This document shows positions 30,738-45,581 of a DNA stretch of 64,000 nt, piece by piece. Origin of the DNA: Bacillota bacterium. GTDB taxonomy: Bacteria > Bacillota > Clostridia > Christensenellales > CAG-138. Both the position numbers and the translations under genes were made by a program. The notes under the pieces were generated by a model. The model did no database searches. It had not been told where the DNA came from and saw only the letters and a list, made by a program, of their open reading frames with translations. The stretch's first letter is position 1. Each line of letters opens with the position of its first letter. The stretch covers positions 23,766-87,765 of the forward strand of contig JAEWCL010000001.1 of assembly GCA_023390655.1 (NCBI GenBank), written 5' to 3'.

Positions 30738-32204
30738 TTACCGGATTTGCTGCACTTTCATCATGGCATCATATAAGGCGAGAAACTGATGGTGCTTGCG
30801 CTGGAACTGCTCGCTCGGGGACGGCAAGAAGCATTGCTCCATCCGTACTACGCCTGCCGCCGCCTCGTCGTAGGATGCATATACATTGGCGGCAACAGCG
30901 CCGATCATGGCTGCGCCAAGGCAAGCGGCCTCTTTCTCTAACGGGATGTATACGGGAATGCCCGTGATATCCGCCTGCATCTGGCACCATATGGGGGATT
31001 TCGCGCCACCTCCGGTGGCAATAATACGCTCGATCGGCGTGCCGCTTGCACTGATATGGTCACAATTCTTTTTGAGCAGGTGCGCAACGCCTTCCATCAC
31101 GGCCAACGCCAGGTCAAATCCATCATGCTTGCTGCGAAGACCGAAAAAGACGCCGCATGCGTCACGGTCGAATTCCGGCGCATTGGTGCCCACAATATAT
31201 GGAAGAAAGATGATTTCGCTTGGCGCGCGTCCAACGAGTGCGGCATTCAGTTCCTCATAAGAAGTGGCTGCCATGCAGATTTGCTTGAACCACTCCAAGC
31301 TGACGCCGCCGCTTTCCGCCACCGGCAGCATCACGTAAGAATTTGGGAGGAACCCGTAATGCATCGGAATGCCGGTATCCTGCCTGACAGGCAAGGCGGC
31401 GATGCTGGAGAGTCCCATAACCGTACCGGTAGAAAGATTCATGCACCCTACATGCACGTTGCCCGTTCCGACCATACCGGCAAAATGATCCAGCGTGCCG
31501 ATATTCACCGTTGCTCCTTCCGAAAGCCCGATCGCCGCGGCGACATCCTTTTTTAGTGTACCTGCACAAGTGCATGGCTCCGCAAGCGACGGCAGCTGGG
31601 TTTCCTGAATACCGATGAACTCCAGCATCTCAGGCCAGTATCGTTTGGCATAGATGTCAAAATAGAATGTAAACGTTGCAATTGAGCGATCGGCAAGCAG
31701 GTTGCCTGTCAAACGGTAGACAACAAAGTCTTTGAGCAGCACATAATGGGCGGCCACAGAATCAAGTTCCGGGCGGTGGCGCCTTAACCATAGGATTTTT
31801 GTTGCCGGCCAGGTGGGCAGTACGGCGGGCTGACCGGTATGCGCATAACAGACGGCAGGAGAGAACTGCTTCTCCACCAGTGCGCACTCCTCCTGTGAGC
31901 GTTCGTCCATCCAGCTGATGGCGTTCATCAGCGGATTGCCGTTGCTGTCAAGCACAACAAGTGATTCGGCCTGCCCGGTGAACGTAATGCTGCATATGCT
32001 GCGTGCATCCGCAGCGCTAGCCTTGATGAGCCTGTGCAGGATGCCGGTCAGCACATGGACATACGCGTCTGCATCAAATTCCACAGATCCGTTTCCCCGC
32101 ATATAGGTTACCGCCGCACTTTCCATATGTAAACGGCGAAAAGCCCCGTCATACAGGGCGGCTTTGATATTTGTGCTGCCAAGATCAACCCCGATAAACA
32201 ACAT
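30738..32204 (-). CDS. FGGY-family carbohydrate kinase (xylulokinase-like), substrate unknown
   Basis: MLFIGVDLGSTNIKAALYD, GQAESLVVLD, WMDERS, ATGGGAKSPIWCQ. Confidence 0.85.
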   Translation of the reverse strand: MLFIGVDLGSTNIKAALYDGAFRRLHMESAAVTYMRGNGSVEFDADAYVHVLTGILHRLIKASAADARSICSITFTGQAESLVVLDSNGNPLMNAISWMDERSQEECALVEKQFSPAVCYAHTGQPAVLPTWPATKILWLRRHRPELDSVAAHYVLLKDFVVYRLTGNLLADRSIATFTFYFDIYAKRYWPEMLEFIGIQETQLPSLAEPCTCAGTLKKDVAAAIGLSEGATVNIGTLDHFAGMVGTGNVHVGCMNLSTGTVMGLSSIAALPVRQDTGIPMHYGFLPNSYVMLPVAESGGVSLEWFKQICMAATSYEELNAALVGRAPSEIIFLPYIVGTNAPEFDRDACGVFFGLRSKHDGFDLALAVMEGVAHLLKKNCDHISASGTPIERIIATGGGAKSPIWCQMQADITGIPVYIPLEKEAACLGAAMIGAVAANVYASYDEAAAGVVRMEQCFLPSPSEQFQRKHHQFLALYDAMMKVQQIR

Positions 32205-32206
32205 AG

Positions 32207-33388
32207 TTACCCCCGCGCATTGCGTTTCATTTTACGGTATACGACATAAGCCAGAAAACACGCTGCCAGCGCTGCTACCGACAGCATGGCAAACGCATAG
32301 CGGATATCCAGCCTGCCGGAAAGAAACCCCATAAGGGATGGAAACACCATTCCGCCAAGGCCGCATCCGGCGCTCATCAATCCGATTGCACTGCCTGTGT
32401 GCTGCGGAAATTCTTTCGCCGCAAGATCAACCAGAAGCGACCATATGGGGCCAAACGCAAAGCCGATCAGTCCGCAAAGAACAAGAGACAGATAGGGGAG
32501 GCCGGATATGGCAAGGATGAAAAAAAGCAGGAACGACGCGCCGAAGGCGATCAAAAGCGTCTTTTGCGAAGAAAGAGTGGAGAAGGAGCATACAAACCTT
32601 GATAGCGCCATGCAAAGCCAATAGGTGGAGATGGCGTAAGCGCCCAGATGATCGCCGGATAATTTCAAGGCAAACAGCGACTCGGTAAAGTACCCAATGC
32701 CACATTCCAACCCAACATAGAGCAGGATCAAAAAGAACAGCAGCGCGAAGAGGGCGGATTTAAAAAATGCGTACATCGGTATATGTCTTTCCATACCTGC
32801 CGTTGCAGCGGCTTTTCTGAACCTGGTGAAGCAAAAAGGCACAAGCAGCACCGTATATCCAATACCGCATATAACAAATACCGCCCGCCAATTCCAGGAG
32901 AACGTTCCGATGCACCATTGTATGAAAATTGGGCTGACGACCGCGCCGAAACTGAGCAAAGACTGTGATAGATTGATATATTTCGCGCTTTTTTCCGGGA
33001 ACGCATCGGCCAAAGCAGCAGTTCCGATGCATTCACACATGCAGTAGCCGACGCCAATCAGAAAAACGCCTGCGATAAACACCCATGTGCCGCTTGCCGC
33101 AGCGGCCAATGCACAGCCCACGATGAATGTCAGCATAAATCCGAACATCGTATACTTTTTCCCAATGCGGTCGGAAAGATTGCCGAACAGCAAGGGAGCC
33201 AAGACAAAGCCGGCGTTCTGCATCGCAACCAGAAGGCCGGAACCCAGAGGAGTCATGGAAAACTCGCTTGAAACGTTGCGCAAAACCAATTGGTAGCCGC
33301 CCATCTCAAATCCGATAAAGAATAAAAGGCCGGAAACGAGAGCCAACAGAACTGGAGCGTTGCGATTTGGCAAAGTAAACTTCGGCAC
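32207..33388 (-). CDS. MFS transporter
   Basis: GTG start. About 12 predicted TM segments, MFS loop GNLSDRIGKK. 2 nt upstream of the kinase gene. Confidence 0.8.
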   Translation of the reverse strand: MPKFTLPNRNAPVLLALVSGLLFFIGFEMGGYQLVLRNVSSEFSMTPLGSGLLVAMQNAGFVLAPLLFGNLSDRIGKKYTMFGFMLTFIVGCALAAAASGTWVFIAGVFLIGVGYCMCECIGTAALADAFPEKSAKYINLSQSLLSFGAVVSPIFIQWCIGTFSWNWRAVFVICGIGYTVLLVPFCFTRFRKAAATAGMERHIPMYAFFKSALFALLFFLILLYVGLECGIGYFTESLFALKLSGDHLGAYAISTYWLCMALSRFVCSFSTLSSQKTLLIAFGASFLLFFILAISGLPYLSLVLCGLIGFAFGPIWSLLVDLAAKEFPQHTGSAIGLMSAGCGLGGMVFPSLMGFLSGRLDIRYAFAMLSVAALAACFLAYVVYRKMKRNARG

Positions 33389-33476
33389 CTTTTATGTGAT
33401 CCTTTCCGTCAGCACAGGGTCTGCTTCTCATGTAGTAAATCCGGAAGGCTGCCGCATGAACCTGCTTCTACCTCGG

Positions 33477-33542
33477 CAACAGTATAATAATTATCCAAAA
33501 AGAAAGCAATAGATAAATATATAGAAAACAATATTAATTTGA
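33477..33542 (-). promoter_or_regulatory. promoter (TTGCTT-17-TATACT, minus strand) embedded in a block of about 60 bp that recurs at 43916-43976
   Basis: By hand alignment, about 38 of the first 42 positions match the block upstream of the Rpe-like gene. The shared spacer is TCTTTTTGGATA. Confidence 0.55.
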
Positions 33543-33722
33543 TGAGCGCGAACATTTACAGTGCATCTGTCATTTCCCACATAAGGAAGAAAGTAAATGC
33601 TGGGAGCCTTTATACTTGAGCCCTTTCTTTTGAGCAGGACCCGCAACCTATCTATAAAGGGCGGTCATGTATACAATTCTGCAATTGCCCTGATTGCCGC
33701 CACTTTGTTATATGTATTATTG

Positions 33723-33736
33723 CGAAAATAGTTTCG
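33723..33736. promoter_or_regulatory. palindrome CGAAAATAGTTTCG; candidate operator 1
   Basis: CGAAA-N4-TTTCG, about 10 nt upstream of the -35 box of the ABC operon promoter. Confidence 0.4.
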
Positions 33737-33746
33737 TTAATTTTTG

Positions 33747-33775
33747 TTGACCGATCATAAATACGCGTCTATATT
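33747..33775 (+). promoter_or_regulatory. candidate promoter for the sugar ABC operon
   Basis: TTGACC, 17-nt spacer, TATATT. Confidence 0.45.
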
Positions 33776-33797
33776 AACAACATTAGGTTACACAAAC

Positions 33798-33811
33798 CGA
33801 AAATAATTTCG
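33798..33811. promoter_or_regulatory. palindrome CGAAAATAATTTCG; candidate operator 2
   Basis: 13 of 14 positions match operator 1. It starts 23 nt downstream of the end of the -10 box. Confidence 0.4.
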
Positions 33812-33888
33812 AAAATCCAGCATTTAACGATATATCTGACCGCACGAAAACACCTTTCTAACATGTATCAGCAATTTGGGAGGAAACG

Positions 33889-34884
33889 ATGGAAAACAAA
33901 AAAAGCACCATGAGGGCGTTGCTCGAAAAATTTGTGGATGTTCGTGAGGCCGGCGTTTTGATGCCGCTGCTGCTGGCCGTGATTCTGTTTTCAGTCAACA
34001 GCGATAAATTCTTTACTGTCAGCAATATGTCAAATGTGATGCGTACGGCCGCCTTTACTATCATTACCTCGATTGGGCAGGCGTTTCTGATCATTGCCGG
34101 GAGCTGGGATATCTCGGTCGGCGCTGTGTTTTCCCTCGGCGGTGTCGCTGCGGCGGCACTGATGACGTACTACAACCTGCCCATTTGGGTGGCCGTAGTA
34201 CTTGCGCTGGTCATCGGCGCGTTGGTTGGCGCATTCAACGGCTTTCTCGTCCAGACGATTAAGCTTCCCCCTTTTATTGCTACGATGGGGAGCATGTACG
34301 CCGCACGGGGGCTGTGTACGGGATATACAAAGGGTGTTTCCGTATATCCGCTGCCGGAGACATTTTTAACGGTAGGCCAAAAGGGGATATTAATCGGCAA
34401 TTACGAATTGCCGTACGTCGTCGTAATTGCGGTCGTACTGGCTGCACTTGCAGGATTCGTTTTGCGGTTTACCACCTATGGCCGGAAGCTTTATGCGGCT
34501 GGCGGAAACGGTGAGGCCGCCCGGCTTTCCGGCATTCCGACGGTGAAAATCCGGTTTTCCGCGTTCGTCCTCACCGGCATACTTGCTGCGCTCACCGGCG
34601 TACTCATGGCGTCGCGCGTTGGGTCTGCACAGCCCAATATCGGTTCCGGCTTTGAGATGACCGTTGTTGCAGCGTGCGTCATCGGCGGCATCAGCATGGA
34701 TGGTGGCGCCGGTTCCATCATTGGCATTGTCATGGGGTCCTTCTTTATGGCGATGATCAGCAACGGCATGACGCTTGTGAAGATCGACGCCTACTGGCAG
34801 CAATTGGTCATCGGGCTTGTGCTCATTTTCGCCTGCTCCCTTGAATATGTCCGCAACCGAATCCGCATCAGCTTAAACATCTGA
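33889..34884 (+). CDS. monosaccharide (Rbs/CUT2-type) ABC transporter permease
   Basis: 331 aa, RbsC-like, with ITSIGQAFLIIAGSWDISVGAV and GGISMDGGAGSIIG. Confidence 0.85.
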   Translation: MENKKSTMRALLEKFVDVREAGVLMPLLLAVILFSVNSDKFFTVSNMSNVMRTAAFTIITSIGQAFLIIAGSWDISVGAVFSLGGVAAAALMTYYNLPIWVAVVLALVIGALVGAFNGFLVQTIKLPPFIATMGSMYAARGLCTGYTKGVSVYPLPETFLTVGQKGILIGNYELPYVVVIAVVLAALAGFVLRFTTYGRKLYAAGGNGEAARLSGIPTVKIRFSAFVLTGILAALTGVLMASRVGSAQPNIGSGFEMTVVAACVIGGISMDGGAGSIIGIVMGSFFMAMISNGMTLVKIDAYWQQLVIGLVLIFACSLEYVRNRIRISLNI

Positions 34885-34894
34885 GGAGAGACAT

Positions 34895-36409
34895 ATGGAA
34901 CAAAGTATCATTCTCCAAATGAAAGGGGTCACCAAATCCTTTGGTGCCACAAAGGCGTTAAAGAATGTTTCCATTGATCTGATGGAACAGGAGATACTGG
35001 CCATTTGCGGCGAAAACGGCGCAGGCAAATCCACCCTGATGAAAGTACTCAGCGGTTCCTACGAGTACAGCTCCTATGAGGGCGAGATCTGGGTCAACGG
35101 TAAAAAATGCGCGTTCCGTGATCCGGCGGATTCTTCCGCGGCTGGTATTGAAATGATCTATCAGGAAATCAGCGTCCATCTCGATCTGTCGGTGGCGGAG
35201 AATATTTTCCTTGGTCGTGTGCCTACGAAAAACGGTATCATCCAGTGGGCGGCCATGCGGGAGGCAGCTGAGAAGTATGTTGCAATGGTCGGCTTGAACG
35301 TCCCCGTCACCACGCGCCTGCGCGACCTGAGCGCATCCCAGTGCCAGATGGTTTCCATCGCGCGCGCGCTTTCCCGCAACCCAAAGATACTTGTGCTGGA
35401 CGAACCCACCTCGCCGTTGACGGAGGCAGAGGTAGAGGAACTGTTTAGAATACTGTTCCGCTTGCGCGAACAGGGCATTTCCTGCATCTATATCAGTCAC
35501 AAAATTCGTGAAATCAAACGCCTGGCGGATCGTGTCTGCATCATGCGCGACGGTTCCCATGTCTGGACAAAACCGGCCCGCGAGGTTGGCGTCAACGACA
35601 TTGTAGAGGCTATGGTCAATCGAAAAATCGAGAATATGTATCCCAAGGAAACTGTTCCGATCGGCAAGGAAGCGTTTGGTATCAAGAACCTTCGCGTCAA
35701 GCATCCCTACAACAAAAAGAAGTACATCGTGGACGGCTTGGATATCGCGGTCCGCGAAGGGGAAATTTTGGGTCTGGTCGGCTTGGTCGGTTCCGGCCGA
35801 TCCGAAACGGTCAACGCAATCTTTGGCGCAATCGGGAGTACGTATGATGAGATGCGCATCGGTGGAGCGCCAACAAGAATTAAAGATCCGGGCGATGCGA
35901 TCAGCAAGGGACTCGCGCTGCTGAGCGAGGACCGCAAGGTCAACGGGTTTATTCCTACGCTCGATATCGCAAAAAACATCAGCCTGCCCCGCCTCGATAA
36001 GGTATCGCAAACGGGCATTATGAAGAAGGATGCCGAAAGGAAGTACGGTGAGGCGTACATGAAGGCCCTGAGCATCAAGGCAAACTCCGAGCGCGACATG
36101 GTGACAGGCCTCTCCGGCGGCAACCAGCAGAAGGTTGTCCTGTCCAAATGGCTGATGGCCGATCCCAAGGTTCTGCTGCTGGACGAACCGACGCGCGGCA
36201 TCGACGTAGGTGCAAAAACACAGATTTACCAGATGATGATGCAACTTGTCAAGCAGGGCATGGCAATCGTCATGATCTCTTCGGAGCTGCCTGAGCTGGT
36301 GGGCATGTGCGACCGCTTTCTGCTGCTGGCCAATGGAAAGATCCGCGCTGAACTGACGCGGGAAGAAGCTGACGAGGAACTGTTCCTGCGCATCTGCTCC
36401 GGTGCCTGA
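34895..36409 (+). CDS. monosaccharide ABC transporter ATP-binding protein (duplicated NBD)
   Basis: First NBD: GENGAGKSTLMK, LSASQCQMV, LVLDEPTSPL. Second NBD: LSGGNQQKV, LLLDEPTRGIDV. Confidence 0.9.
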   Translation: MEQSIILQMKGVTKSFGATKALKNVSIDLMEQEILAICGENGAGKSTLMKVLSGSYEYSSYEGEIWVNGKKCAFRDPADSSAAGIEMIYQEISVHLDLSVAENIFLGRVPTKNGIIQWAAMREAAEKYVAMVGLNVPVTTRLRDLSASQCQMVSIARALSRNPKILVLDEPTSPLTEAEVEELFRILFRLREQGISCIYISHKIREIKRLADRVCIMRDGSHVWTKPAREVGVNDIVEAMVNRKIENMYPKETVPIGKEAFGIKNLRVKHPYNKKKYIVDGLDIAVREGEILGLVGLVGSGRSETVNAIFGAIGSTYDEMRIGGAPTRIKDPGDAISKGLALLSEDRKVNGFIPTLDIAKNISLPRLDKVSQTGIMKKDAERKYGEAYMKALSIKANSERDMVTGLSGGNQQKVVLSKWLMADPKVLLLDEPTRGIDVGAKTQIYQMMMQLVKQGMAIVMISSELPELVGMCDRFLLLANGKIRAELTREEADEELFLRICSGA

Positions 36410-36497
36410 TCCCTTTCAGGCGGCAATTCTCAAGGAATATACCGATTGTTGGTGCCAAGGGGCATTAACATAAAATAACAATGGAGGATCGAACACG

Positions 36498-37580
36498 ATG
36501 AAAAAGCTACTTACTCTGGCCCTAGTGCTCATGCTTGCATTAAGCTTTGCCAGCTGCAGTAAGCCCGGAGCCGCCGAACAGACTGCGGTTACGGAGAACG
36601 GCACCGGCGTTCCTGCCGAACCTGCAGCGCCGTCTGAGACTGCAGCGCCTGCCGCGGAAGGCGGCGAGCAACCGTACATTATTTTGGTTAACGCCCTCAT
36701 CGGCCATCCTGTCTACGAACAGCAGGCGGAGGCCGCGCGCAAGGCCGCTGAAGATTATGGCGTAAAGCTTGAAATCATCGGGCCAACGTTCGGGACGAGC
36801 ACCATCGTGACCGATTATATCGCGGCAATGGAGAATGCCATCACCTTACAGCCGGACGCGATTATCGGGGAACCATTCGACCCCTCTCTCTTTGAGGTGT
36901 TCTCCCGTGCAAAGCAGGCAAACATCCCCATGTTCCTGACCTCCAACTTGCTCGAGAACGAGGATGATTTCGTTGCCTGGATCGGCACGGATAACTACAA
37001 TTACGGTGTAAATGCCGTAGACATGATCGCTGAGAAAACCGGCGGCAAAGCGAACATCTGCGTGGTCATGGGCGACCTTGCGACCACAAACCAGGTTGAA
37101 CAGCGCAAAGGCATTGAAGAACGCATTGCCCAGAAGTATCCGGACATGAAAGTTGTCAATGTGGTTGCCGATAAGAATGATCTGGCCACCGCTATGAATG
37201 TTACTGAGGATACGCTCAATACCTATCCGGAAACCAATTGCTTTGTGATGCTGGAGTCCACCGGCGGCCCGGGCGTTGCCCAAGTCTGCGCGGAGATGAA
37301 CCGCGATGACGTTCTGATCCTTGACATCGACGCCGTTGCGGCCACCATCGATAATATCAAGGCCGGTAAGGTGTGGGCCACCCTGGCGCAGAACTTCTAC
37401 AAGCGCGGCTATGAGTCCGTCCGCATGGCGTACGAATACCTGAACGAAGGCAGCAATGCAAGCTTTGCAAAACTCAACGACTCGGGCACGGTTCTGATCG
37501 ATGAGAGAAATGTCGTAGCCTATGAAGAGAACCTTTGGGATCAAATCATCTACAAGGGCACACCCTGGCCTGCGAAATAG
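36498..37580 (+). CDS. monosaccharide ABC substrate-binding lipoprotein (RbsB-like fold)
   Basis: Lipobox SFASC, Ala/Pro/Glu linker, then a periplasmic-binding-protein type I pattern (ILVNALIGHPVY..., ICVVMGDLATTNQVEQR). Confidence 0.85.
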   Translation: MKKLLTLALVLMLALSFASCSKPGAAEQTAVTENGTGVPAEPAAPSETAAPAAEGGEQPYIILVNALIGHPVYEQQAEAARKAAEDYGVKLEIIGPTFGTSTIVTDYIAAMENAITLQPDAIIGEPFDPSLFEVFSRAKQANIPMFLTSNLLENEDDFVAWIGTDNYNYGVNAVDMIAEKTGGKANICVVMGDLATTNQVEQRKGIEERIAQKYPDMKVVNVVADKNDLATAMNVTEDTLNTYPETNCFVMLESTGGPGVAQVCAEMNRDDVLILDIDAVAATIDNIKAGKVWATLAQNFYKRGYESVRMAYEYLNEGSNASFAKLNDSGTVLIDERNVVAYEENLWDQIIYKGTPWPAK

Positions 37581-37706: not shown

Positions 37707-38708
37707 ATGGCCAGATTGCGGGATATCGCAGAAAAAACCGGATTAAATGTATCCACCGTGTCCCGGGCTTTGCGTGATGCTCCCGATATCAAGCCCGCAA
37801 CGATCAATCTGGTCAAACGGACTGCCATGCAGATGGGATACCGGATGCGCTTTCAGGGCAAGGGCAGCAACACCGTTGGCCTGATTGTGCCGGAAATAGG
37901 CAGCCATTATTATTCGGAAATGGTTGAGTCCATTGAGCGGGAACTAAAAAAGCACGGCTGTTCGATGCTCGTCTGCATCGGAGGGTTCGATGCCGGGAGC
38001 ATTCTTAACGCAATCGATCAGATGGTACAGCATGATATTTGCGGCATGATTATCAATGATTGCTTTGTTCTAGACGGCAAGGAGGATATCCGGAAGCACG
38101 ACCGTATCGCGCATTCTGCACTGCCGCTGGTGCTGATTTCCGAAAATAGGGCGGGTCTGCCGGTGGACGCCATTTGTATCGACACCAAGTTCGCCGTGCG
38201 TCTGGCGATGGAGCATCTGATCGAATTGGGACACACGGAAATCGGCTACATCGGGGAATATGCTTCAGATGTGCGATACCGGACATATCTTGAGCTTTTA
38301 AAGGAAAAGGAACTACCGATCCGCGAAAACCATGTGAAGCGCGGCAAGGAACGGTTTGAATTGGGCGGTTACCTGCGCGCCAGAGAGCTTCTGCAGGAAC
38401 CGGATATCGCAAGCATGACGGCTGTTATTGCCTGTTACGATCAGGTAGCGCTTGGCGCGCTGAGCGCCTTTTCGGAAGCTGGCATCCGTGTGCCGGAGGA
38501 GATATCGGTGGTCGGGTTTGATAACATCATACTCAATGATTACCTGCCCATCCAGTTAACAAGCATTATGAATCCGACTGAGCAGCTAGGCTCGTTGGCG
38601 GTCAAGCTGTTGGTGGACAATATCAAGGAAAAGGAAAATCACGTGGTGCAGAACGTCTCTTTGCAGCCAAGACTTGTGGTGCGGAATTCCACCTGTACGC
38701 GCTTATAA
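37707..38708 (+). CDS. LacI-family transcriptional regulator
   Basis: N-terminal HTH ARLRDIAEKTGLNVSTVSRALRD plus a sugar-binding core. Confidence 0.9.
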   Translation: MARLRDIAEKTGLNVSTVSRALRDAPDIKPATINLVKRTAMQMGYRMRFQGKGSNTVGLIVPEIGSHYYSEMVESIERELKKHGCSMLVCIGGFDAGSILNAIDQMVQHDICGMIINDCFVLDGKEDIRKHDRIAHSALPLVLISENRAGLPVDAICIDTKFAVRLAMEHLIELGHTEIGYIGEYASDVRYRTYLELLKEKELPIRENHVKRGKERFELGGYLRARELLQEPDIASMTAVIACYDQVALGALSAFSEAGIRVPEEISVVGFDNIILNDYLPIQLTSIMNPTEQLGSLAVKLLVDNIKEKENHVVQNVSLQPRLVVRNSTCTRL

Positions 38709-38736
38709 AACATTGAACACGATAAAGGAAGATAAT

Positions 38737-40089
38737 ATGAAGAAAATCGGTTTTGTTTGCTTCGGGGAAGTAAATACGCCCTTTGAGCGTCTTAAAATCA
38801 AGCATGGTGCGGCGCTGCGTACGTTAAACAGCGTTACGGGCACTGTGTACGATGCCGGTATCGTGATCGACGACGCCGCATATGCAACGGCAGACGCGGC
38901 TATAGAAAAGCTCTTAGCCGCCGACCCGGATTGCCTGATCGTATGCGTGGCAGGCTGGGTGCCCACGCATGCGGTGATCCGCGTGACGGATGCGTTCCGC
39001 TACCTGCCGATGTTGCTCTGGGGACTCTGCGGCTGGATGGAAGGCGGACGCCTGGTGACGACCGCTGATCAGGCCGCAACCACCGCCATACGCCCTGCAT
39101 TTGAGGCGATGCATTACCGGTTCAAGTACATCTATAACGTAATCGGCAAGCCGGAACCCGTGGATAAAATCGAGGCGTTCACGAACGCCGCGTATGCCGC
39201 GCGCAGGATGAGAAGTGCGCGCGTAGGAACCATGGGTTACCGCGATATGCTGCTCTATGGCACCCAGTTTGAAGGCAACAGCATGCGCGGTAAGCTGGGG
39301 ATTGAGGTCGAGCCCTTCGAAATGCTTGAAATGGTACAGAACATGGAAACCCTCGATGCGCCAGAGGTACGCGAGGGAATGGCGTTCATCAAGGAAAACT
39401 GGACGTTTGAGAAGGAATGCGACGACTCGATCCTCGAAACCGGCGTAAAATATGCGCTGGCCATCGGCAAAAAGATTGAGGAACGGGGCTATCAGGCCAT
39501 CACGCTCATTGATGTGGACGGGATGAAGAAGCTTCTCGGCTTTCCGCCCGCCATGGTGTTTATGCTGCTCGAGCATTACTATGGGGTACTGACCGTGCCG
39601 GAGAACGATATCATGGGGGCGGTTACGCAGTTGATCGCTTCCGGTATTACGGGGCAAACGGTGCCGTATCTTGAATACTACGAATTCTTTGAAAGCAGTA
39701 TGCTCATCGGCGTGCCGGACTATATCCCGGCGGCGGTTACGGATGGAGCCGTGCGCGTACTGCCGACGGCCTTCGGCATGTTGTCCAGCAGCCTGTTAAA
39801 CGTATCCCGCGTCAAAACGGGCCTCGTTACCTGCATGAGGCTGGTTTACCTTGATGGAACCTACTATATGCATATGTATCTTGCGGATGCAAAAACGCCC
39901 AAGCAATGGGAGGAATGCGGCTGGGCGCCGCCTGCGCCGCAGCTGCCGAGCCTGGAGGTTATCCCGCAGGACTGCACGGTTGAGGAATTTGCGCAAAAGG
40001 TCTCGAGCCAGCATGTGATCGTCTGCTATGGCGATCATCGCGAGGCGGTCCGGGACTTCTGCAAACTGATGGACATTAAACTGCTTTAA
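38737..40089 (+). CDS. FucI/AraA-like (L-fucose/L-arabinose isomerase superfamily) protein, function unknown
   Basis: Start at MKKIGFVCFGEV after AAGGAAG. The size (450 aa) and the N-terminal flavodoxin-like pattern (IGFVCFGE...DCLIVCVAGWVPTH) resemble the COG2407-type family. Assignment is by recollection only. Confidence 0.45.
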   Translation: MKKIGFVCFGEVNTPFERLKIKHGAALRTLNSVTGTVYDAGIVIDDAAYATADAAIEKLLAADPDCLIVCVAGWVPTHAVIRVTDAFRYLPMLLWGLCGWMEGGRLVTTADQAATTAIRPAFEAMHYRFKYIYNVIGKPEPVDKIEAFTNAAYAARRMRSARVGTMGYRDMLLYGTQFEGNSMRGKLGIEVEPFEMLEMVQNMETLDAPEVREGMAFIKENWTFEKECDDSILETGVKYALAIGKKIEERGYQAITLIDVDGMKKLLGFPPAMVFMLLEHYYGVLTVPENDIMGAVTQLIASGITGQTVPYLEYYEFFESSMLIGVPDYIPAAVTDGAVRVLPTAFGMLSSSLLNVSRVKTGLVTCMRLVYLDGTYYMHMYLADAKTPKQWEECGWAPPAPQLPSLEVIPQDCTVEEFAQKVSSQHVIVCYGDHREAVRDFCKLMDIKLL

Positions 40090-40104: not shown

Positions 40105-41568
40105 ATGGATATGAAGACGATTAAAATTGGATGGGCGCAAACCAGTATTACGGCGGACCGGCCGCTGTTGATGATCGGGCAGATGTATCACCGTGTTTCC
40201 GAGTATGTACGGGATCCCATTACAGCCACTGCGCTGGCGTTAGACAATGGGGAAACTCAGGCGGTATTTGTATCGGTGGATATGACGGAGTACCCGACGC
40301 ATATAAAAGAATTGCTCAAGGAAAAGCTTTCTGCTATAACGGACCTGAAATTTGAGAGTATTTCGATCAGCGCTACGCATACGCATAACGCATCGGATTT
40401 CTGCTCCGACTTTATGCGTGAGGACAATGCGCAAGTGTTTGGCTCCGATATTTTGCCTCCTGTTCACATTGGAGATGATGTGTTGCTTGGTAGCGAGGCG
40501 CAGGACTTCCTCGTTGAACGTCTTGCAAGCGTGATTACCCGTGCCTGGCAGAACAGGCGGGAGGGTGGTATCAGCTACGCGCATGATTACGCCGTGGTTG
40601 GGTTTAACCGCAGGCCGATCTTCCATAAACCCGATGGCATGGAAACCATCATGTATGGCGACTGCTCAAGGGATGACTTTGCGGGGTTTGAAAGTGGCGC
40701 GGACTCTTCCGTGGACGTGCTGTATACATGGGATATGGACGGCCGCCTGACGGGTGTCGCGGTGGACGTCCCCTGTCCATCACAGGTGTTTGAACTGCAC
40801 CGTTTCATTACGGCAGATTATTGGGGCTTCACCAGGGCTGCCATCCGCGAATCGCTGGGCAATGTTTATGTGCTTCCACTATGCGGTGCATCCGGAGACA
40901 TCTCTCCGCTGGATTTGGTGCGCATCAGCAAATATAATAAGCAGGCATTGCTGGACTGGGGCGGCCAGACGAAGGAGGTTCTTCGCAATTTCGATATGAC
41001 GCGTGAATGCGAAGGCATTGCCGCCCGCATTACCGAAGCCGTTGTGCGCGGGTATCAAGTGGCGCGCAATTATATTGATTACACGCCCGCGTTTGCCCAT
41101 GTGGTGTTGCAGATGGATCTTCCGCTTCGGCTGGTTTCAGAAGAGGAATATGCGGCGTCAGCCAAGGAAGTGGAGCGCATCAAACGGGCGTTTTCCAAGG
41201 AACATCCCATGGAAACGGCAGACATTGTGCGCGCGTTCGAAGCACAGGGCGATGTGCTGCGGTGGCAGCTGCAACAAAAAACAAAAGTGTTTGCTTGTGT
41301 ATGCCATTTTGTGCGCATCGGCGAAGTTGGGATCATGACGAACCCGTTCGAGCTCTATCATGAGTACGCGCAGCGTATGAAAGCGCGCGTAAAAGCGCAG
41401 CAGCTGTTAGTTGTGCAGCTTTCCAATGGCCTTGGCGGATACCTGCCAACAGAGGCGGCCGTCCATGGCGGCAGCTACAGCAGTAAGCCCGCATCGACGA
41501 TATGTGGCCCGGAAGGCGGCAATCTGTTGGTGGAAAAAACGGTTGAAGTGCTGGATTCTTTATTTTAG
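40105..41568 (+). CDS. neutral/alkaline ceramidase-N-domain-like hydrolase, function unknown
   Basis: IGWAQTSITADRP..., RVSEYVRDPITATALALDNGETQAVFVSVDM, ISISATHTHNASDF. The SATHTH metal-site-like motif is recalled from the ceramidase family. Confidence 0.4.
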   Translation: MDMKTIKIGWAQTSITADRPLLMIGQMYHRVSEYVRDPITATALALDNGETQAVFVSVDMTEYPTHIKELLKEKLSAITDLKFESISISATHTHNASDFCSDFMREDNAQVFGSDILPPVHIGDDVLLGSEAQDFLVERLASVITRAWQNRREGGISYAHDYAVVGFNRRPIFHKPDGMETIMYGDCSRDDFAGFESGADSSVDVLYTWDMDGRLTGVAVDVPCPSQVFELHRFITADYWGFTRAAIRESLGNVYVLPLCGASGDISPLDLVRISKYNKQALLDWGGQTKEVLRNFDMTRECEGIAARITEAVVRGYQVARNYIDYTPAFAHVVLQMDLPLRLVSEEEYAASAKEVERIKRAFSKEHPMETADIVRAFEAQGDVLRWQLQQKTKVFACVCHFVRIGEVGIMTNPFELYHEYAQRMKARVKAQQLLVVQLSNGLGGYLPTEAAVHGGSYSSKPASTICGPEGGNLLVEKTVEVLDSLF

Positions 41569-41625
41569 ATTGGCAGGCGGGGGCGGCTGCATGAAAGATA
41601 GTGACTGAAGCGTGCAGTAAACGCA

Positions 41626-41658
41626 AAACCGCAAAAGCAGGTAATGCTCTTGCGGTTT
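41626..41658. terminator. hairpin between convergent genes
   Basis: AAACCGCAA, 15-nt loop, TTGCGGTTT. The U-tracts are weak on both strands. Confidence 0.35.
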
Positions 41659-41801
41659 CCGCTTTCATAACAACGGCATCATTTTATGTACGCCATTGAG
41701 GCCGTTATTTAGGCTAAAGTCCGTTTTGTAGGGGGAAGGCTGAACTGCATATCCTCCAATGCTACTTGTCGTATCACGGAAAGCTCCATAAGCACAGCTC
41801 T

Positions 41802-42575
41802 TTATGAGAATTGGATATTGACGCCCTTTTCCGCAATCTGTTGCGCCAGCGGAGAATTGGCCCCCTGGTCGGTAATCCAGGTGGTGACGCCCTGAAGGCT
41901 GCAGACCTGGGAGAAGCTTTCATATCCAAGCTTCGTACTGTCGGCCACAATCATGGTACGGGCTGCCCGCTCCATCATGATGCGGTCAATAACACCCTCC
42001 TCTGCGTGGTAGGTGGTAAGCCCCCTATCCGGGCAGATCCCATCAACGGAGAGGATCGCCCAATCCGCCTTGAAGCTGGAGAGCTGATTCTTGGCATCCT
42101 CGCCATAGGTAAAGGAATATTGCGCGTTGATTTCCCCGCCCAGCAGGATAATGCGGAAGGTGGGCACAGATCCCAGCTCTACGGCCACGGAGATGGAATT
42201 GGTGACGATGTTCAGATTTTTTCGCTTTTTCAGCTCCATAGCCGTGAAATAGGTGGTTGTGCCGGAATTGATCAGCAGGATATCCCCATCATGGACCATA
42301 TTCGCGGCGGCGGCGGCGATGGCCTTTTTTTTATCCATATGCTCCCGCGTGCGGCGCTGAAAATCCATGTTGTAATAATTTTTCATGGTCTGGATGGCGC
42401 CGCCTTGTGTGCGCTCCAAATAACCATCCCGCTCCAACGCGTCCAAATCGCTGCGGATGGTAACAGGGGTTGCCCCCAATTGCTCGCTGAGTGTGGATAC
42501 GCGCACCTGCCCGTCCCGGCGGAGCAGCGAAAGGATTTCCTGCCTGCGCGCATCAATTTTTAATTCTCCGGCCAT
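41802..42575 (-). CDS. DeoR/GlpR-family transcriptional regulator
   Basis: RRQEILSLLRRDGQVRVSTLSEQLGATPVTIRSDLDALERDG wHTH, and a DeoR C-terminal domain (LLINSGTT). Confidence 0.85.
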   Translation of the reverse strand: MAGELKIDARRQEILSLLRRDGQVRVSTLSEQLGATPVTIRSDLDALERDGYLERTQGGAIQTMKNYYNMDFQRRTREHMDKKKAIAAAAANMVHDGDILLINSGTTTYFTAMELKKRKNLNIVTNSISVAVELGSVPTFRIILLGGEINAQYSFTYGEDAKNQLSSFKADWAILSVDGICPDRGLTTYHAEEGVIDRIMMERAARTMIVADSTKLGYESFSQVCSLQGVTTWITDQGANSPLAQQIAEKGVNIQFS

Positions 42576-42622
42576 CTAGATGCCCCCTTGTACTTGCTGC
42601 TGTCAGTATACCTTATTCAGGC

Positions 42623-43231
42623 TCACTGTTCCAGAGGCTTATGATTGAGGCGCTCGCCAACAGCGCCGCCCGGATGGATCACCGCAAATTGTTCGTTGCG
42701 GAATCCTGTAGCCTCAATTAACGCCGCCTGCAGCGCGTCGAACAGTACGGACAATACGGTGAAGCTCGTTGTGCCCTGGCTGTTGTAAGGGTCGGTTTCC
42801 CGGGTGACAAGCATCTGCAGCACGATACCAGCGTCCTTCGCCAAAGGCGAATCCAGGTTCTCCGTGACAGAAATGACGGTGACGCCTTTTTCAGCGCAAA
42901 TGCTAAGGATAGGCAGCAGCTCCGCGGTCTTCCCACCGCGGGACGCCAGCAGAATCACGTCGCCCCGTTGCAGATAGCCCATTGCGCCATGGACAGCCTC
43001 CGCGGGAGAAATAAAGCGCGCCGGGCGCTCGATACAGCACATCAGGTGCGCAAAATGCTGGCACGCAATGCCGGAGTGGCCGCATCCGCTTGCGGCGATG
43101 CGCGGTGCTTTTGCGAGCGCGTCCACCGCGCGCAGGAACGATTCCCTGTCTAGGCCCGTAAACGCATGCGGGATGGCCTCGGCCTCAATTGTATAGGTGG
43201 AAGCGGCTGCTTTCCATACCCTCTGTTCCAT
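42623..43231 (-). CDS. SIS-domain sugar-phosphate isomerase (6-phospho-3-hexuloisomerase-like)
   Basis: IAASGCGHSGIA, DVILLASRGGKTAE. 202 aa. Confidence 0.65.
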   Translation of the reverse strand: MEQRVWKAAASTYTIEAEAIPHAFTGLDRESFLRAVDALAKAPRIAASGCGHSGIACQHFAHLMCCIERPARFISPAEAVHGAMGYLQRGDVILLASRGGKTAELLPILSICAEKGVTVISVTENLDSPLAKDAGIVLQMLVTRETDPYNSQGTTSFTVLSVLFDALQAALIEATGFRNEQFAVIHPGGAVGERLNHKPLEQ

Positions 43232-43234
43232 CAG

Positions 43235-43888
43235 TTACTTTCCTCCATTCTGCAGCGATGCAATGGCTTCTTTCCGGTCAGCCTTGGTAAATACCGCACT
43301 GCCCGCAACCAGAATATCCGCGCCTGCCGCAATGATTTCCGCTGCGTTTGCGGCGTTCACGCCGCCGTCCACGCTGATCAGATAGTGTGCGCCGCGGTCC
43401 TTACGCAGCCGCGCGGCTTCGCGGATCCGGTCATATGCCTCCGGCATAAACTTTTGCCCGCCAAATCCGGGATGGATGCTCATAACCAGCAAAATATCCG
43501 CCCGCTCCAGCAGCGGCTTTACGCGCTCAAGCGGCGTATCGGGGCAAAGTGATAATCCGAAGCCAACCTTTTCTTTCAGGCAAATTTCATATACCTGTAA
43601 GGGATCGGATTGGGACTCCGCGTGTACCGTAATTGCATCCGCGCCGGCATCAATAAACGCCTGCGCATAATGGGCGGGCTGCTCGATCATCAGGTGTACG
43701 TCAAAATACAGTTGGCTTTCCGGCCGGATGCCGGCGACGATATTTGGCCCAAAAGAAAGGTTCGGCACAAAATGCCCGTCCATCACATCGATATGGAGGT
43801 ATTCCGCACCTGCATGTTCAATAGAACGGATTTCTTCGCTTAGCCTGCCGGCATTCGCGGCCAATAGGGATGGCGCAATAATCGGCAT
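43235..43888 (-). CDS. ribulose-phosphate 3-epimerase family protein (Rpe or hexulose-6-P 3-epimerase)
   Basis: IAPSLLAAN, LHIDVMDGHFVPNLSFGP, FDVHLMI, VMSIHPGFGGQKF, VDGGVN. Confidence 0.85.
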   Translation of the reverse strand: MPIIAPSLLAANAGRLSEEIRSIEHAGAEYLHIDVMDGHFVPNLSFGPNIVAGIRPESQLYFDVHLMIEQPAHYAQAFIDAGADAITVHAESQSDPLQVYEICLKEKVGFGLSLCPDTPLERVKPLLERADILLVMSIHPGFGGQKFMPEAYDRIREAARLRKDRGAHYLISVDGGVNAANAAEIIAAGADILVAGSAVFTKADRKEAIASLQNGGK

Positions 43889-43915: not shown

Positions 43916-43976
43916 CAACAGTATAATTACTATCCAAAAAGAAATCAATAAATAAATTAATAGAAGATATTATTGA
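43916..43976 (-). promoter_or_regulatory. promoter (TTGATT-17-TATACT, minus strand) inside the second copy of the conserved block of about 60 bp
   Basis: See 33477-33542. The leader to the AGGAGA RBS is only about 25 nt here. Confidence 0.55.
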
Positions 43977-44033
43977 CGTAATCGGCAAATATGTTTTACA
44001 CTAGTGTTGACTAAAATATGCGGGGGAGGCATT

Positions 44034-44744
44034 ATGAAAAAGCCATTCTCTTTAAAGCCACCATTCTTTGAAATTGGACCCAAATCCTATTTATATGGCG
44101 ATGATGTGCTGGCACTGGCACTGTCTGCCGATGCAGTTTCAAAAAAATATGATGTAGATATTATCTTTACCACCCCGGTGGTGGATATCCGGCGGGTAGC
44201 GGCAGCAACGGAGCGCATTTTCGTCTTCGCGCCGCACATGGATGCGCTCAAGCCGGGCCGTGGCCTGGCGGATACGCTGCCGGAATCTTTGGTTGCCGCG
44301 GGCGCACAGGGCGTCATGCTGAATCATTGCGAAAGGCCCGTCTCCCTTGCGGTGCTGAATGAAACCATCCGCAGGGCGGATGAGGTGGGGCTTGCCACGA
44401 TCGTCTGCACGGATTCCATCCGGGAAGCATCGGCTGCGGCTTGTCTCGGGCCCAATATCATCGTGGCAGAACCCACGGAGTTGATCGGCACCGGCGAAGC
44501 CAGCGATATGGATTACGTGCGGGCTTCCATTGAGGCTGTAAAATCCATCAATAGAGAAGTCTATGTCCTGCAGGGTGCGGGTATCAGCAACGGCGAGGAT
44601 GTATATCGGGTCATCCATGCCGGAGCGGAGGCGACCGGCTCATCAAGCGGCATCATAAAGGCGCCGGACCGCGCCGCCATGATCGACGAGATGATAGCTG
44701 CTGTGCGGCGGGCCTGGGATGACCGGCTGGCTGGACGCAAATAA
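44034..44744 (+). CDS. triose-phosphate isomerase family paralogue (non-glycolytic type)
   Basis: Start at MKKPFSL after GGGGGAGG. FFEIGPKSYLYG, GVMLNHCERP (an NHSE-like catalytic segment), IIVAEPTELIGTG. Confidence 0.6.
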   Translation: MKKPFSLKPPFFEIGPKSYLYGDDVLALALSADAVSKKYDVDIIFTTPVVDIRRVAAATERIFVFAPHMDALKPGRGLADTLPESLVAAGAQGVMLNHCERPVSLAVLNETIRRADEVGLATIVCTDSIREASAAACLGPNIIVAEPTELIGTGEASDMDYVRASIEAVKSINREVYVLQGAGISNGEDVYRVIHAGAEATGSSSGIIKAPDRAAMIDEMIAAVRRAWDDRLAGRK

Positions 44745-45408: not shown

Positions 45409-45420
45409 GCATTGCTAAGA

Positions 45421-45451
45421 AAAAAGGAACGGATATGCCGTTCCTTTTTTA
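45421..45451. terminator. bidirectional intrinsic terminator
   Basis: An A5 run, then GGAACGG-atatg-CCGTTCC, then a T6 run, between convergent genes. Confidence 0.75.
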
Positions 45452-45581
45452 GTAAATCAAATGTCGATGGGAGGCGCGCAAGTACCGCAAACGGCTAAGG
45501 GAAATAGATGTAAGCGCTGTGCTATAATGGGCATAACATGGTGTGCTGGCCCCGTAGTCAATACTGGTTTCCTCCGCTTTC

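What the first reader, a model, noticed from the sequence alone, without database searches (positions are those of the whole stretch)
33477..33542. A promoter/operator block of about 60 bp is duplicated 10 kb apart, linking two operons into one regulon
CAACAGTATAATAATTATCCAAAAAGAAAGCAATAGATAAAT (33477 onward) matches CAACAGTATAATTACTATCCAAAAAGAAATCAATAAATAAAT (43916 onward) at about 38 of the first 42 positions. Looser similarity continues for another 20 nt.

Read on the minus strand, each copy contains a promoter (TTGCTT or TTGATT, 17-nt spacer, TATACT). The spacer TCTTTTTGGATA is conserved, which is unusual for spacers and suggests a protein site overlapping the promoter. One copy drives MFS plus FGGY kinase. 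The other drives Rpe-like, SIS isomerase and the DeoR regulator, which is the obvious candidate binder.
Basis: seen in the sequence. Interest (0 to 1): 0.6.

Follow-up and report, generated by a model that had tools for sequence, protein, structure and literature searches.

The report
Duplicated promoter left by operon split
The two look-alike 60-base blocks are two copies of one sugar-operon promoter: related bacteria have a single copy driving one long operon, and in this lineage a duplication followed by deletions split that operon in two and left each half with its own copy, an ordinary kind of element with an unusually legible history.

Summary
The repeat is real. Positions 33477-33535 and 43916-43974 match at 50 of 59, the strongest repeat in the window and far beyond chance. 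It is not a dispersed element.

Comparative genomics explains it. At least 11 related Clostridia/Christensenellaceae MAGs carry one contiguous cluster: FGGY<MFS<DeoR<SIS(<Rpe) |P| >TIM>YjbQ>ABC>LacI>FucIso-like>unk487, with one divergent promoter region P. In the window lineage and its sister L127, the DeoR-SIS-Rpe-P-TIM-YjbQ piece sits after unk487. A second copy of P stays in front of MFS-FGGY. That copy is flanked by a roughly 75-nt stub of the deoR 3' end and a decayed TIM start.

So block A is a paralogous copy of the ancestral rpe/SIS promoter. It was retained when a segmental duplication plus complementary deletions split the operon.

- The -35 (TTGMTT), the -10 (TATACT) and an upstream ATTTTCT/TCTAT repeat region are conserved in 17 independent orthologues.
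- DeoR binding is plausible but untested.
- The neighbouring ABC operon has separate LacI-type palindromic operators.

Ordinary in kind, with a neat evolutionary history.

The parts
33477..33535 (-). Block A, the best-preserved part of the second (paralogous) copy of the ancestral rpe/SIS promoter. It now sits upstream of MFS-FGGY. -10 TATACT at 33486-33481, 17-nt spacer, -35 TTGCTT at 33509-33504. Upstream repeat elements TCTAT/TTTCT, including GTTTTCT at 33529-33523.
   Evidence: Orthologue profile. The PWM built without the window sequences has its two best window hits at 33520 and 43959.
33475..33611 (-). Full extent of copy A as judged against the single-copy promoter region of relatives (L043 5841-5982, L042 5880-5979). 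It includes the relic of the divergent TIM promoter, the TIM ribosome-binding site and the TIM start codon (ATG 33598-33600 on the + strand).
   Evidence: blastn; alignment. The TIM half of copy A is 61-65% identical to L205/L042/L043.
33596..33670 (+). Probable decayed 5' remnant of a TIM-like gene. The start region matches L043, and codons about 13-25 are collinear with the window's own TIM. It forms the start of a 44-codon relic ORF at 33598-33732.
   Evidence: Local alignments score 27 and 22 against shuffle maxima of 25 and 24. The signal is weak but collinear.
33389..33463 (-). Stub of the deoR 3' end (about 75 nt, with an indel) that now forms the 5' leader of MFS. It keeps the MFS ribosome-binding site GGAAAGGA. 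It marks the deletion that removed rpe, SIS and most of deoR from this copy.
   Evidence: Alignments to L042 and L043 deoR ends, scores 76 and 90. blastn L042 8028-10717 = window 33426-30738. The leader is not unusually structured.
30738..33388 (-). MFS transporter (32207-33388) and FGGY sugar kinase (30738-32204, xylulokinase-like). This is the operon downstream of copy A, and in relatives it is the distal part of the rpe-SIS-deoR-MFS-FGGY operon.
   Evidence: Pfam and NCBIfam; synteny.
43916..43974 (-). Block B, the orthologous (original-position) copy of the promoter, upstream of Rpe-SIS-DeoR. -10 TATACT at 43925-43920, -35 TTGATT at 43948-43943. Upstream element AATAATATCTTCTAT at about 43973-43959.
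   Evidence: It is 95-97% identical in L207 and L209, 89% in L205 and 79-82% in L042/L043, while the adjacent TIM-side half falls to 43-46%.
43973..44002 (+). Divergent promoter for TIM-like/YjbQ genes (TTGACG, 18 nt, TACACT). Its -35 is the complement of the conserved GTCAA at the upstream edge of block B.
41802..43888 (-). Rpe-family epimerase (43235-43888), SIS sugar-phosphate isomerase (42623-43231) and DeoR-family regulator (41802-42575, closest NCBIfam model AgaR). This is the operon downstream of copy B.
33723..33811 (+). Separate control region of the ABC-LacI-FucIso-unk487 operon. Promoter TTGACC-17-TATATT at 33747-33775, flanked by two 14-bp palindromes CGAAA-N4-TTTCG at 33723-33736 and 33798-33811 (LacI-type operators). 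This region is not part of the duplicated block.

Best explanation
The 59-nt repeat is the conserved core of two copies of one sigma-70-type promoter region.

Ancestral state. In the ancestor, and still in many relatives, a single divergent promoter region P lay between a TIM-like/YjbQ(/ABC...) transcription unit and an rpe-SIS-deoR-MFS-FGGY operon.

Rearrangement. In the lineage of this window, a segment containing deoR-SIS-rpe-P-TIM-YjbQ became duplicated. A tandem duplication of that segment together with the ABC-LacI-FucIso-unk487 genes is the most economical route. Redundant genes were then lost in a complementary way.
- The distal copy kept the genes.
- The original position lost TIM-YjbQ on one side of P and rpe-SIS-most of deoR on the other side.
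- P itself was kept at the original position, because it is the only promoter available to the single-copy MFS-FGGY genes.

Result. There are now two operons, each behind its own copy of the same promoter with the same upstream elements: three imperfect TTNTCTWT-like repeats about 10-12 bp apart, the last overlapping the -35. They are therefore expected to stay co-regulated, most likely repressed by the DeoR-family protein encoded in the copy-B operon and induced by the pathway's sugar or sugar phosphate.

Shown: the repeat, its uniqueness, the ancestral single-operon arrangement, the relics flanking copy A, and the conservation of the -35, -10 and upstream elements.

Inferred: that copy A is transcriptionally active, that the repeats are an operator, and that DeoR binds them.
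For: 1. Significance and uniqueness of the repeat.

2. Synteny. L125, L126, L130, L131, L135, L136, L137, L139, L140, L141 and L149 all have FGGY<MFS<DeoR<SIS(<Rpe)|P|>TIM>YjbQ>ABCperm>ABCatp>SBP>LacI>FucIso>unk487. L205/L206 (Rpe 86% identical) still have Rpe-SIS-DeoR-MFS-FGGY contiguous. In L042/L043 deoR overlaps the MFS start by about 14 nt, so they form one operon.

3. DNA mapping of L042 onto the window:
- L042 24-4393 = window 38076-33723
- L042 4506-8082 = window 45398-41809
- L042 5880-5979 also = window 33577-33478
- L042 8028-10717 = window 33426-30738
The promoter and the deoR 3' end are therefore each present twice.

4. Relics beside copy A: the deoR stub and the TIM start.

5. 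The derived order is independently assembled. L122/L123 come from two ENA samples. The sister MAG L127 shares the unk487/deoR junction and has copy A upstream of MFS.

6. Profile of 17 independent orthologous promoters: GTCAAT, ATTTTCT, TATTGATTTCT and TATACTG are near-invariant.

7. A-specific and B-specific substitutions are shared with L127_A and with L207/L209_B respectively. The copies have therefore evolved independently since the duplication, yet remain 82-85% alike, while the adjacent TIM-side half is only 39% alike.

8. All minus-strand promoter-like sites in the 500-bp MFS upstream region lie within the block, and the upstream gene is divergent, so read-through is impossible.

9. A DeoR-family regulator sits in the locus, AgaR-like at 193 bits. 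Published regulon reconstructions describe DeoR-family motifs as imperfect direct repeats with 10-11 bp periodicity (PMC3870299), with sites overlapping promoters or 5' UTRs, which implies repression (PMC8579813).

10. The LacI regulator has its own clearly different palindromic sites elsewhere.
Against: - No transcript data could be obtained, so neither start site is mapped.
- The -35 of copy A (TTGCTT) matches only 3 of 6, and the generic scan does not call it.
- In the sister genome L127 the upstream ATTTTCT element of copy A has decayed (CTTTTGT). Identity upstream of the -35 drops to 66%. At least that part may not be needed at copy A.
- The candidate operator repeats are T-rich and low in complexity. 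Part of the upstream conservation (GTCAAT plus an A-rich stretch) could simply be the -35 and UP-like element of the divergent TIM promoter.
- The absence of the ATTTTCT motif from clusters that lack DeoR is confounded with phylogeny.
- The exact rearrangement path (tandem against dispersed duplication) is not resolved. The junction pieces 41574-41808 and 45399-45581 have no homologue outside the lineage.
Confidence: 0.8

Rival explanations
1. Copy A is only a decaying fossil of the rearrangement. It no longer works as a regulated promoter, and MFS-FGGY are expressed weakly, constitutively or from another start.
For: - The -35 of copy A is poor, and the generic scan does not call it.
- The upstream element is degraded in L127.
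- Conservation of the copy-A core between the window and L127 (37 of 40) is only slightly above that of the adjacent MFS coding sequence (90%).
Against: - MFS and FGGY are intact and 85% identical in protein to orthologues, so they must be transcribed.
- The gene upstream is divergent, and every promoter-like site on that strand lies in the block.
- From -10 to -35 plus flanks, the window and L127 differ at 1 of about 45 positions, while the leader is 83% and the upstream part 66% identical.
Confidence: 0.12
2. The shared block binds a regulator other than the DeoR protein, for example the LacI-family protein of the neighbouring operon or a global regulator. Alternatively it carries no operator at all and is simply promoter plus UP-like A/T tract.
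For: - No binding data exist.
- The conserved GTCAAT-A/T stretch doubles as the -35 and upstream tract of the divergent TIM promoter.
- The half-site GAAAAT/ATTTTC is shared with the LacI-type palindromes, and in some relatives the element downstream of the -10 reads as an inverted repeat GAAAAT-N3-ATTTTC.
Against: - The LacI-type palindrome CGAAA-N4-TTTCG is found in pairs only upstream of the ABC or LacI genes (38 of 43 occurrences in 2.27 Mb of loci) and never in the block.
- L133/L232, which has DeoR but no LacI/ABC module in the locus, keeps the block elements.
- No cre site occurs near either copy.
Confidence: 0.2
3. The two blocks are members of a dispersed repeat or mobile element, or are alike by chance or convergence in A+T-rich promoter DNA.
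For: Both blocks are 81-83% A+T. A pattern scan of 185,579 genomes returns some unrelated hits, including one nine-member family of near-identical sequences.
Against: - Only two copies occur in the window, even at 3 mismatches.
- The similarity score lies about 19 SD above the null.
- In the genome collection, the true matches are all at the orthologous SIS/Rpe-TIM site, plus the one derived MFS site in the sister MAG.
- Flanking relics of deoR and TIM show descent, not convergence.
- No Rfam family matches.
Confidence: 0.02
4. The similarity of A and B is maintained by ongoing gene conversion between the copies rather than by selection on each.
For: The two copies lie only 10.4 kb apart in direct orientation.
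Against: - Copy A has GATAATTAT and TTGCTT in both the window and L127.
- Copy B has GATAGTAAT and TTGATT in the window, L207 and L209.
- The differences are therefore fixed and inherited separately in each copy.
Confidence: 0.03

Closest known systems
Local sugar-catabolic regulons of DeoR-family repressors: E. coli AgaR/aga cluster, and TagR/tag cluster of E. coli Nissle (PMC12226905)
   Same: - The repressor gene is embedded in the catabolic cluster.
- The promoters are divergent.
- Several similar T/C-rich sites with a TTTC core lie at or next to promoter elements.
- More than one transcription unit is controlled.
- The window's DeoR scores best against the AgaR model.
   Different: - The score is below the AgaR cutoff (193 against 260 bits), so it is not an AgaR orthologue.
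- The motif differs: ATTTTCT/TCTAT repeats here, against CTTTCAAAATGAAAG-type sites in TagR.
- The pathway is different and uncharacterised.
- No binding or induction data exist for this element.
DeoR-family motifs from comparative regulon reconstruction (RhaR groups, PMC3870299; Caldicellulosiruptor regulons, PMC8579813)
   Same: Imperfect direct or tandem repeats with about 10-11 bp periodicity that overlap promoters or leaders. They were inferred by phylogenetic footprinting of orthologous upstream regions, the same method used here.
   Different: The sequences are unrelated. Here the repeats are weak and T-rich, and they partly coincide with elements of the divergent promoter.
Operon death by rearrangement (Price, Arkin & Alm 2006, The Life-Cycle of Operons, PMC1480536)
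   Same: A conserved operon is split by a local rearrangement while both parts are retained. [quoted passage not shown]
   Different: That survey does not describe duplication of the promoter as the route; the word stem 'duplicat' does not occur in its text. Here the downstream half keeps the ancestral promoter as a paralogous copy, and the deletion scars are still readable.
Duplication followed by complementary loss (the duplication-degeneration-complementation idea, from general knowledge)
   Same: A duplicated segment loses different parts in each copy, so the full gene set survives once.
   Different: Here it acts on a gene cluster and its promoter rather than on the subfunctions of one gene. 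The only element retained in both copies is the promoter, plus a 75-nt stub.

Membership tests
Sigma-70 (housekeeping) type promoter | -35-like and -10-like hexamers 16-18 nt apart, upstream of a gene on the same strand | tested here: met
   Copy B: TTGATT-17-TATACT, 9 of 12, called by the scan. Copy A: TTGCTT-17-TATACT, 8 of 12, found only by a scan with a lower threshold. Each lies upstream of its operon, 27 nt and 92 nt from the start codon.
Sigma-70 (housekeeping) type promoter | Hexamers and spacing conserved in orthologous upstream regions while the flanks diverge | tested here: met
   In 17 independent orthologues, the -35 carries 1.87 bit per position and the -10 carries 1.89. Distal spacer and downstream flanks carry 0.5-0.9.
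Sigma-70 (housekeeping) type promoter | Mapped transcription start 5-9 nt downstream of the -10 | not testable with these tools
Operator of a DeoR-family repressor | DeoR-family regulator (HTH_DeoR + DeoRC) encoded in or next to the regulated genes | tested here: met
   41802-42575: PF08220 + PF00455, with AgaR as the closest NCBIfam model.
Operator of a DeoR-family repressor | Repeated conserved motif (usually direct repeats about 10-11 bp apart) overlapping the promoter or leader | tested here: inconclusive
   TCTAT / TCTAT(TTTAT) / TCTTT units lie 10-12 bp apart from about -50 to -17, and are conserved across orthologues. Relatives have extra ATTTTCK copies 21 and 65 bp away. However, the units are short, T-rich and overlap elements of the divergent promoter.
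Operator of a DeoR-family repressor | Motif present where the regulator is present and absent where it is absent | tested here: inconclusive
   ATTTTCT sits at a fixed offset in nearly all DeoR-containing clusters. It is mostly absent from the DeoR-less clusters (L154, L157, L158, L196, L199 and others). Those form a separate clade, so the contrast is confounded with phylogeny.
Operator of a DeoR-family repressor | Protein binds the DNA and is released by an effector | not testable with these tools
   Needs EMSA or footprinting.
Segmental duplication with complementary loss | Outgroups show a single-copy, contiguous arrangement | tested here: met
   At least 11 MAGs with the full contiguous cluster, plus L205/L206.
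Segmental duplication with complementary loss | Non-coding or partial-gene relics flank the retained copy and are collinear with the ancestral order | tested here: met
   The deoR 3' stub at 33389-33463. The whole intergenic region, including the TIM RBS and ATG, at 33475-33611. The TIM 5' coding relic is weak.
Dispersed repeat / mobile element (REP, MITE) | Many copies at unrelated sites; terminal inverted repeats or a stable hairpin | tested here: not met
   Two copies in the window. Genome-collection scans find it only at the orthologous site or the derived MFS site. No conserved palindrome occurs in the block, and Rfam has no match.

The most novel reading that the evidence does not exclude
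The window preserves a dated, scar-bearing example of how an operon can be split without losing co-regulation. A segmental duplication is followed by complementary deletions, and selection spares only the promoter/operator in the gene-depleted copy. If expression data showed both copies still respond to the same DeoR repressor, this would be a natural worked example of regulon birth from an operon by promoter duplication. It comes with a sister lineage (L127) in which the upstream operator half of one copy is already decaying and the neighbouring transporter module has been swapped.
Probability: 0.45. Interest if true: 0.5.

Novelty: new member of a known kind. Interest (0 to 1): 0.35.

Why it matters
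For annotation:
- MFS-FGGY and Rpe-SIS-DeoR (with TIM-YjbQ on the other side of copy B) belong to one catabolic unit for a still unidentified sugar.
- MFS-FGGY should be assigned the same promoter and probably the same repressor.
- The adjacent ABC-LacI-FucIso-like-unk487 operon is under a separate LacI-type control.

For operon evolution, it gives a concrete mechanism with readable scars: how the downstream half of a split operon can keep its ancestral control region instead of having to evolve a new promoter.

The element itself, a sigma-70-type promoter with probable repressor sites in a sugar-utilisation cluster, is ordinary.

Tried and rejected
- Exact-core scan of 185,579 species genomes. 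It gave 41 single hits. Only one (L014) was a true relative, at the orthologous site. The source genome itself is not in that collection.
- My first PWM of the upstream element also hit 33795. That hit is half of a different motif, the LacI-type palindrome CGAAA-N4-TTTCG, so it is not a third site of the block's motif.
- I first read the downstream ATTTTCK copies in relatives as pure direct repeats. Some can equally be read as inverted repeats GAAAAT-N3-ATTTTC. The symmetry of the operator is left open.
- Junction pieces 41574-41808, 45399-45581 and 33612-33722 were searched for further gene remnants. Nothing was found outside the lineage, so tandem and dispersed duplication cannot be told apart.
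- Rfam, leader folding and a cre scan were all negative.
- PDB sequence searches for the FucIso-like and unk487 proteins had no hits.
- Block B of the sister MAG L127 could not be recovered, because its contig ends inside rpe. L207 (94% identical to L127 over 1.8 kb) served as a proxy.

Full report
**Observation**

The two blocks exist as described. Positions 33477-33535 and 43916-43974 align without gaps at 50 of 59 positions and form the top direct repeat of the window. The 20-nt core occurs only at these two places, even with three mismatches allowed; the shuffle expectation is 0.01. The best ungapped score between the two intergenic regions is 32. Composition-matched resamples gave 9.3 +/- 1.2 with a maximum of 15, although the blocks are over 80% A+T.

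On the minus strand each block carries TTGMTT, a 17-nt spacer and TATACT. The generic scan calls copy B at 9 of 12. Copy A reaches 8 of 12 and is not called.

**Context**

The gene order in the window is as follows:
- FGGY kinase 30738-32204 (-)
- MFS 32207-33388 (-)
- block A
- ABC permease, ATPase and binding protein 33889-37580 (+)
- LacI-family regulator 37707-38708 (+)
- FucIso-like protein and an unknown 487-aa protein, to 41568 (+)
- DeoR 41802-42575 (-)
- SIS isomerase 42623-43231 (-)
- Rpe-family epimerase 43235-43888 (-)
- block B
- TIM-like 44034-44744 (+)
- YjbQ/UPF0047, to 45408 (+)

Rnf and cobalamin genes nearby, and the relatives found, place the organism among anaerobic Clostridia. 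The window is identical to an ENA metagenome contig of 656 kb (L122).

**What relatives show**

A protein-guided search brought in the orthologous loci. At least eleven MAGs have one contiguous cluster: L125, L126, L130, L131, L135, L136, L137, L139, L140, L141 and L149. Their order is FGGY<MFS<DeoR<SIS(<Rpe) | P | >TIM>YjbQ>ABCperm>ABCatp>SBP>LacI>FucIso>unk487. L205/L206, whose Rpe is 86% identical to the window's, still have Rpe-SIS-DeoR-MFS-FGGY in one run. In L042/L043, deoR overlaps the MFS start.

DNA mapping of L042 onto the window gives four pieces:
- L042 24-4393 = window 38076-33723 (ABC...LacI)
- L042 4506-8082 = window 45398-41809 (YjbQ...DeoR)
- L042 8028-10717 = window 33426-30738 (end of deoR, MFS, FGGY)
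- L042 5880-5979 = window 33577-33478, a second match of the promoter region

With L043 that second match runs from 33611 to 33475. It includes the TIM ribosome-binding site and start codon.

Between copy A and the MFS start lies a roughly 75-nt stub of the deoR 3' end. It carries an indel but keeps the MFS ribosome-binding site. A weak, collinear trace of TIM 5' coding sequence follows the relic ATG.

The window lineage therefore reads c-P'-a-b where relatives read c-b-a. The promoter and the deoR end are each present twice. This requires a duplication followed by deletions on both sides of P' in the old position. A cut-and-paste move would not leave these copies.

The derived order is not an assembly artefact. 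It is seen in two ENA assemblies. An independent NCBI MAG, L127 (DeoR 96% identical), shares the unk487/deoR junction and has copy A upstream of MFS.

**Is it a promoter?**

I anchored 22 homologous upstream regions on the -10. I then profiled 17 of them that exclude the window, its sister and near-duplicates. The following are close to invariant:
- GTCAAT, the complement of the -35 of the divergent TIM promoter
- ATTTTCT
- TATTGATTTCT, which contains the -35
- TATACTG

The distal spacer and the sequence downstream are not conserved. Within the close clade, block B is 89% identical to L205 and about 80% to L042/L043. The adjacent TIM-side half has dropped to 43-46%.

The gene upstream of MFS is divergent, so MFS-FGGY need a promoter within 33389-33888. 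Every promoter-like site on that strand lies in the block. From the -10 through the -35, copy A differs from its L127 orthologue at about one position in 45. The leader is 83% identical and the region upstream of the -35 is 66%. These points support an active promoter at both copies. No start site could be mapped.

**The spacer argument and the operator**

A and B share 15 of 17 spacer bases. Family-wide, only TCTWTTT next to the -35 is conserved. The spacer identity therefore mainly reflects recent descent.

Copy-specific substitutions are shared with the respective orthologues. Copy A has GATAATTAT and TTGCTT, as in L127. Copy B has GATAGTAAT and TTGATT, as in L207 and L209. The copies have therefore evolved separately since a duplication that predates the window/L127 split, without gene conversion.

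Better operator candidates are three imperfect units (TCTAT, TCTAT/TTTAT, TCTTT) spaced 10-12 bp apart, from about -50 to the -35. In SIS-first relatives, further ATTTTCK copies lie 21 bp upstream and about 18 bp downstream of the -10. This fits published descriptions of DeoR-family motifs as imperfect direct repeats with 10-11 bp periodicity that overlap promoters (PMC3870299, PMC8579813).

The evidence for an operator remains soft:
- The units are short and T-rich.
- They partly coincide with the divergent promoter.
- One of them has decayed in L127's copy A.

The DeoR protein is AgaR-like but scores below that model's cutoff. Binding is inferred, not shown.

**A second, separate control system**

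The ABC-LacI-FucIso-unk487 operon has its own promoter, TTGACC-17-TATATT at 33747-33775. It is flanked by two 14-bp palindromes CGAAA-N4-TTTCG at 33723-33736 and 33798-33811. Such pairs, 76-88 bp apart, precede ABCperm in every relative with that module. They precede LacI in the DeoR-less clusters L145 and L146. In 2.27 Mb of fetched loci, 38 of 43 occurrences are in this context. They are most simply the LacI-family regulator's operators, which argues against LacI as the binder of the block.

**Not a dispersed repeat**

The exact core found only the orthologous site of one relative among 185,579 species genomes. A degenerate whole-promoter pattern found 43 stretches:
- Ten are the orthologous SIS/Rpe-TIM site.
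- One is L127's MFS-side copy.
- The rest are unrelated singletons, plus one unrelated nine-member family.

No Rfam family matches, and the leader of copy A is not structured. No cre site lies near either copy.

**Verdict**

It is a promoter duplicated 10 kb apart, and it does tie the two operons together. The reason is historical: one ancestral operon was split by duplication and complementary loss. The conserved-spacer argument does not hold family-wide, and the DeoR link is untested.

In kind this is an ordinary promoter/probable operator of a sugar-utilisation cluster. The interest lies in the unusually clear record of how an operon can be split while each half keeps the ancestral control region. 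Surveys of operon death by rearrangement do not describe this route (PMC1480536).

Noticed in passing
window 33723-33736 and 33798-33811; same positions upstream of ABCperm or LacI in L042, L043, L045, L125, L126, L130-L132, L135-L141, L145, L146, L149: Pairs of 14-bp palindromes CGAAA-N4-TTTCG, 76-88 bp apart, flank the ABC-operon promoter. 38 of 43 occurrences in 2.27 Mb of loci are in this context, and they track the LacI-family regulator. They are probably its operators, possibly forming a loop as the gal operators do.
   Followed up: partly
window 38674-40089 and 40105-41568: A FucIso-like protein has only a weak Fucose_iso_C hit and a sulfoquinovose-isomerase hit at E = 2.8e-6. The adjacent 487-aa protein has no Pfam, NCBIfam or PDB sequence match. 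The two form a conserved pair in more than 60 Clostridia MAGs, usually next to an FGGY kinase, SIS isomerase, TIM-like and YjbQ genes. This looks like an uncharacterised sugar pathway.
   Followed up: partly
L127 273-5640 (JAEYLA010000122.1): In the sister MAG the ABCperm-ABCatp-SBP-LacI module between copy A and FucIso is replaced by a non-orthologous module of the same kind in a different order: LacI, binding protein, ATPase, permease. Homology to the window stops right at the upstream edge of block A (33537).
   Followed up: partly
window 43975-44033 versus 33536-33611: The TIM-side half of the promoter region is better preserved, relative to outgroups, in the gene-less relic copy A (61-65% to L205/L042/L043) than in the working copy B (43-46%). 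The TIM promoter half of copy B has therefore been remodelled in this lineage. It is shared by L207 and L209.
   Followed up: partly
window 33598-33732 (+): A 44-codon ORF starts at the relic TIM start codon, with its ribosome-binding site, and runs into the first LacI-type palindrome. It is probably a meaningless fusion relic, but it could be translated if the relic TIM promoter still fires.
   Followed up: no
window 58878-58937 and 59094-59153: A 60-nt direct repeat (82% identical) lies 216 nt apart inside coding sequence. Its translation contains GMTCAAC. From general knowledge, this is the heavy-metal-associated domain motif, so these are probably tandem metal-binding domains of a P-type ATPase or chaperone.
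   Followed up: no
window 45420-45450: A 32-nt near-perfect inverted repeat sits just after the YjbQ stop. It gives a weak sub-threshold Rfam hit (SpF25, E = 0.13). It is most likely the terminator hairpin at the end of the relocated segment.
   Followed up: no
L215, L219, L221, L222, L231, L235, L236, L241, L247: Nine different Clostridia MAGs share a near-identical stretch, ...ctgtctttgcTATTGATTTCTTCGRGTTCAGGTGTTATACTGTTaataatatttgt. It matched the promoter pattern by chance and lies outside any gene of this cluster. Such conservation across families suggests a mobile element or a highly conserved gene.
   Followed up: no
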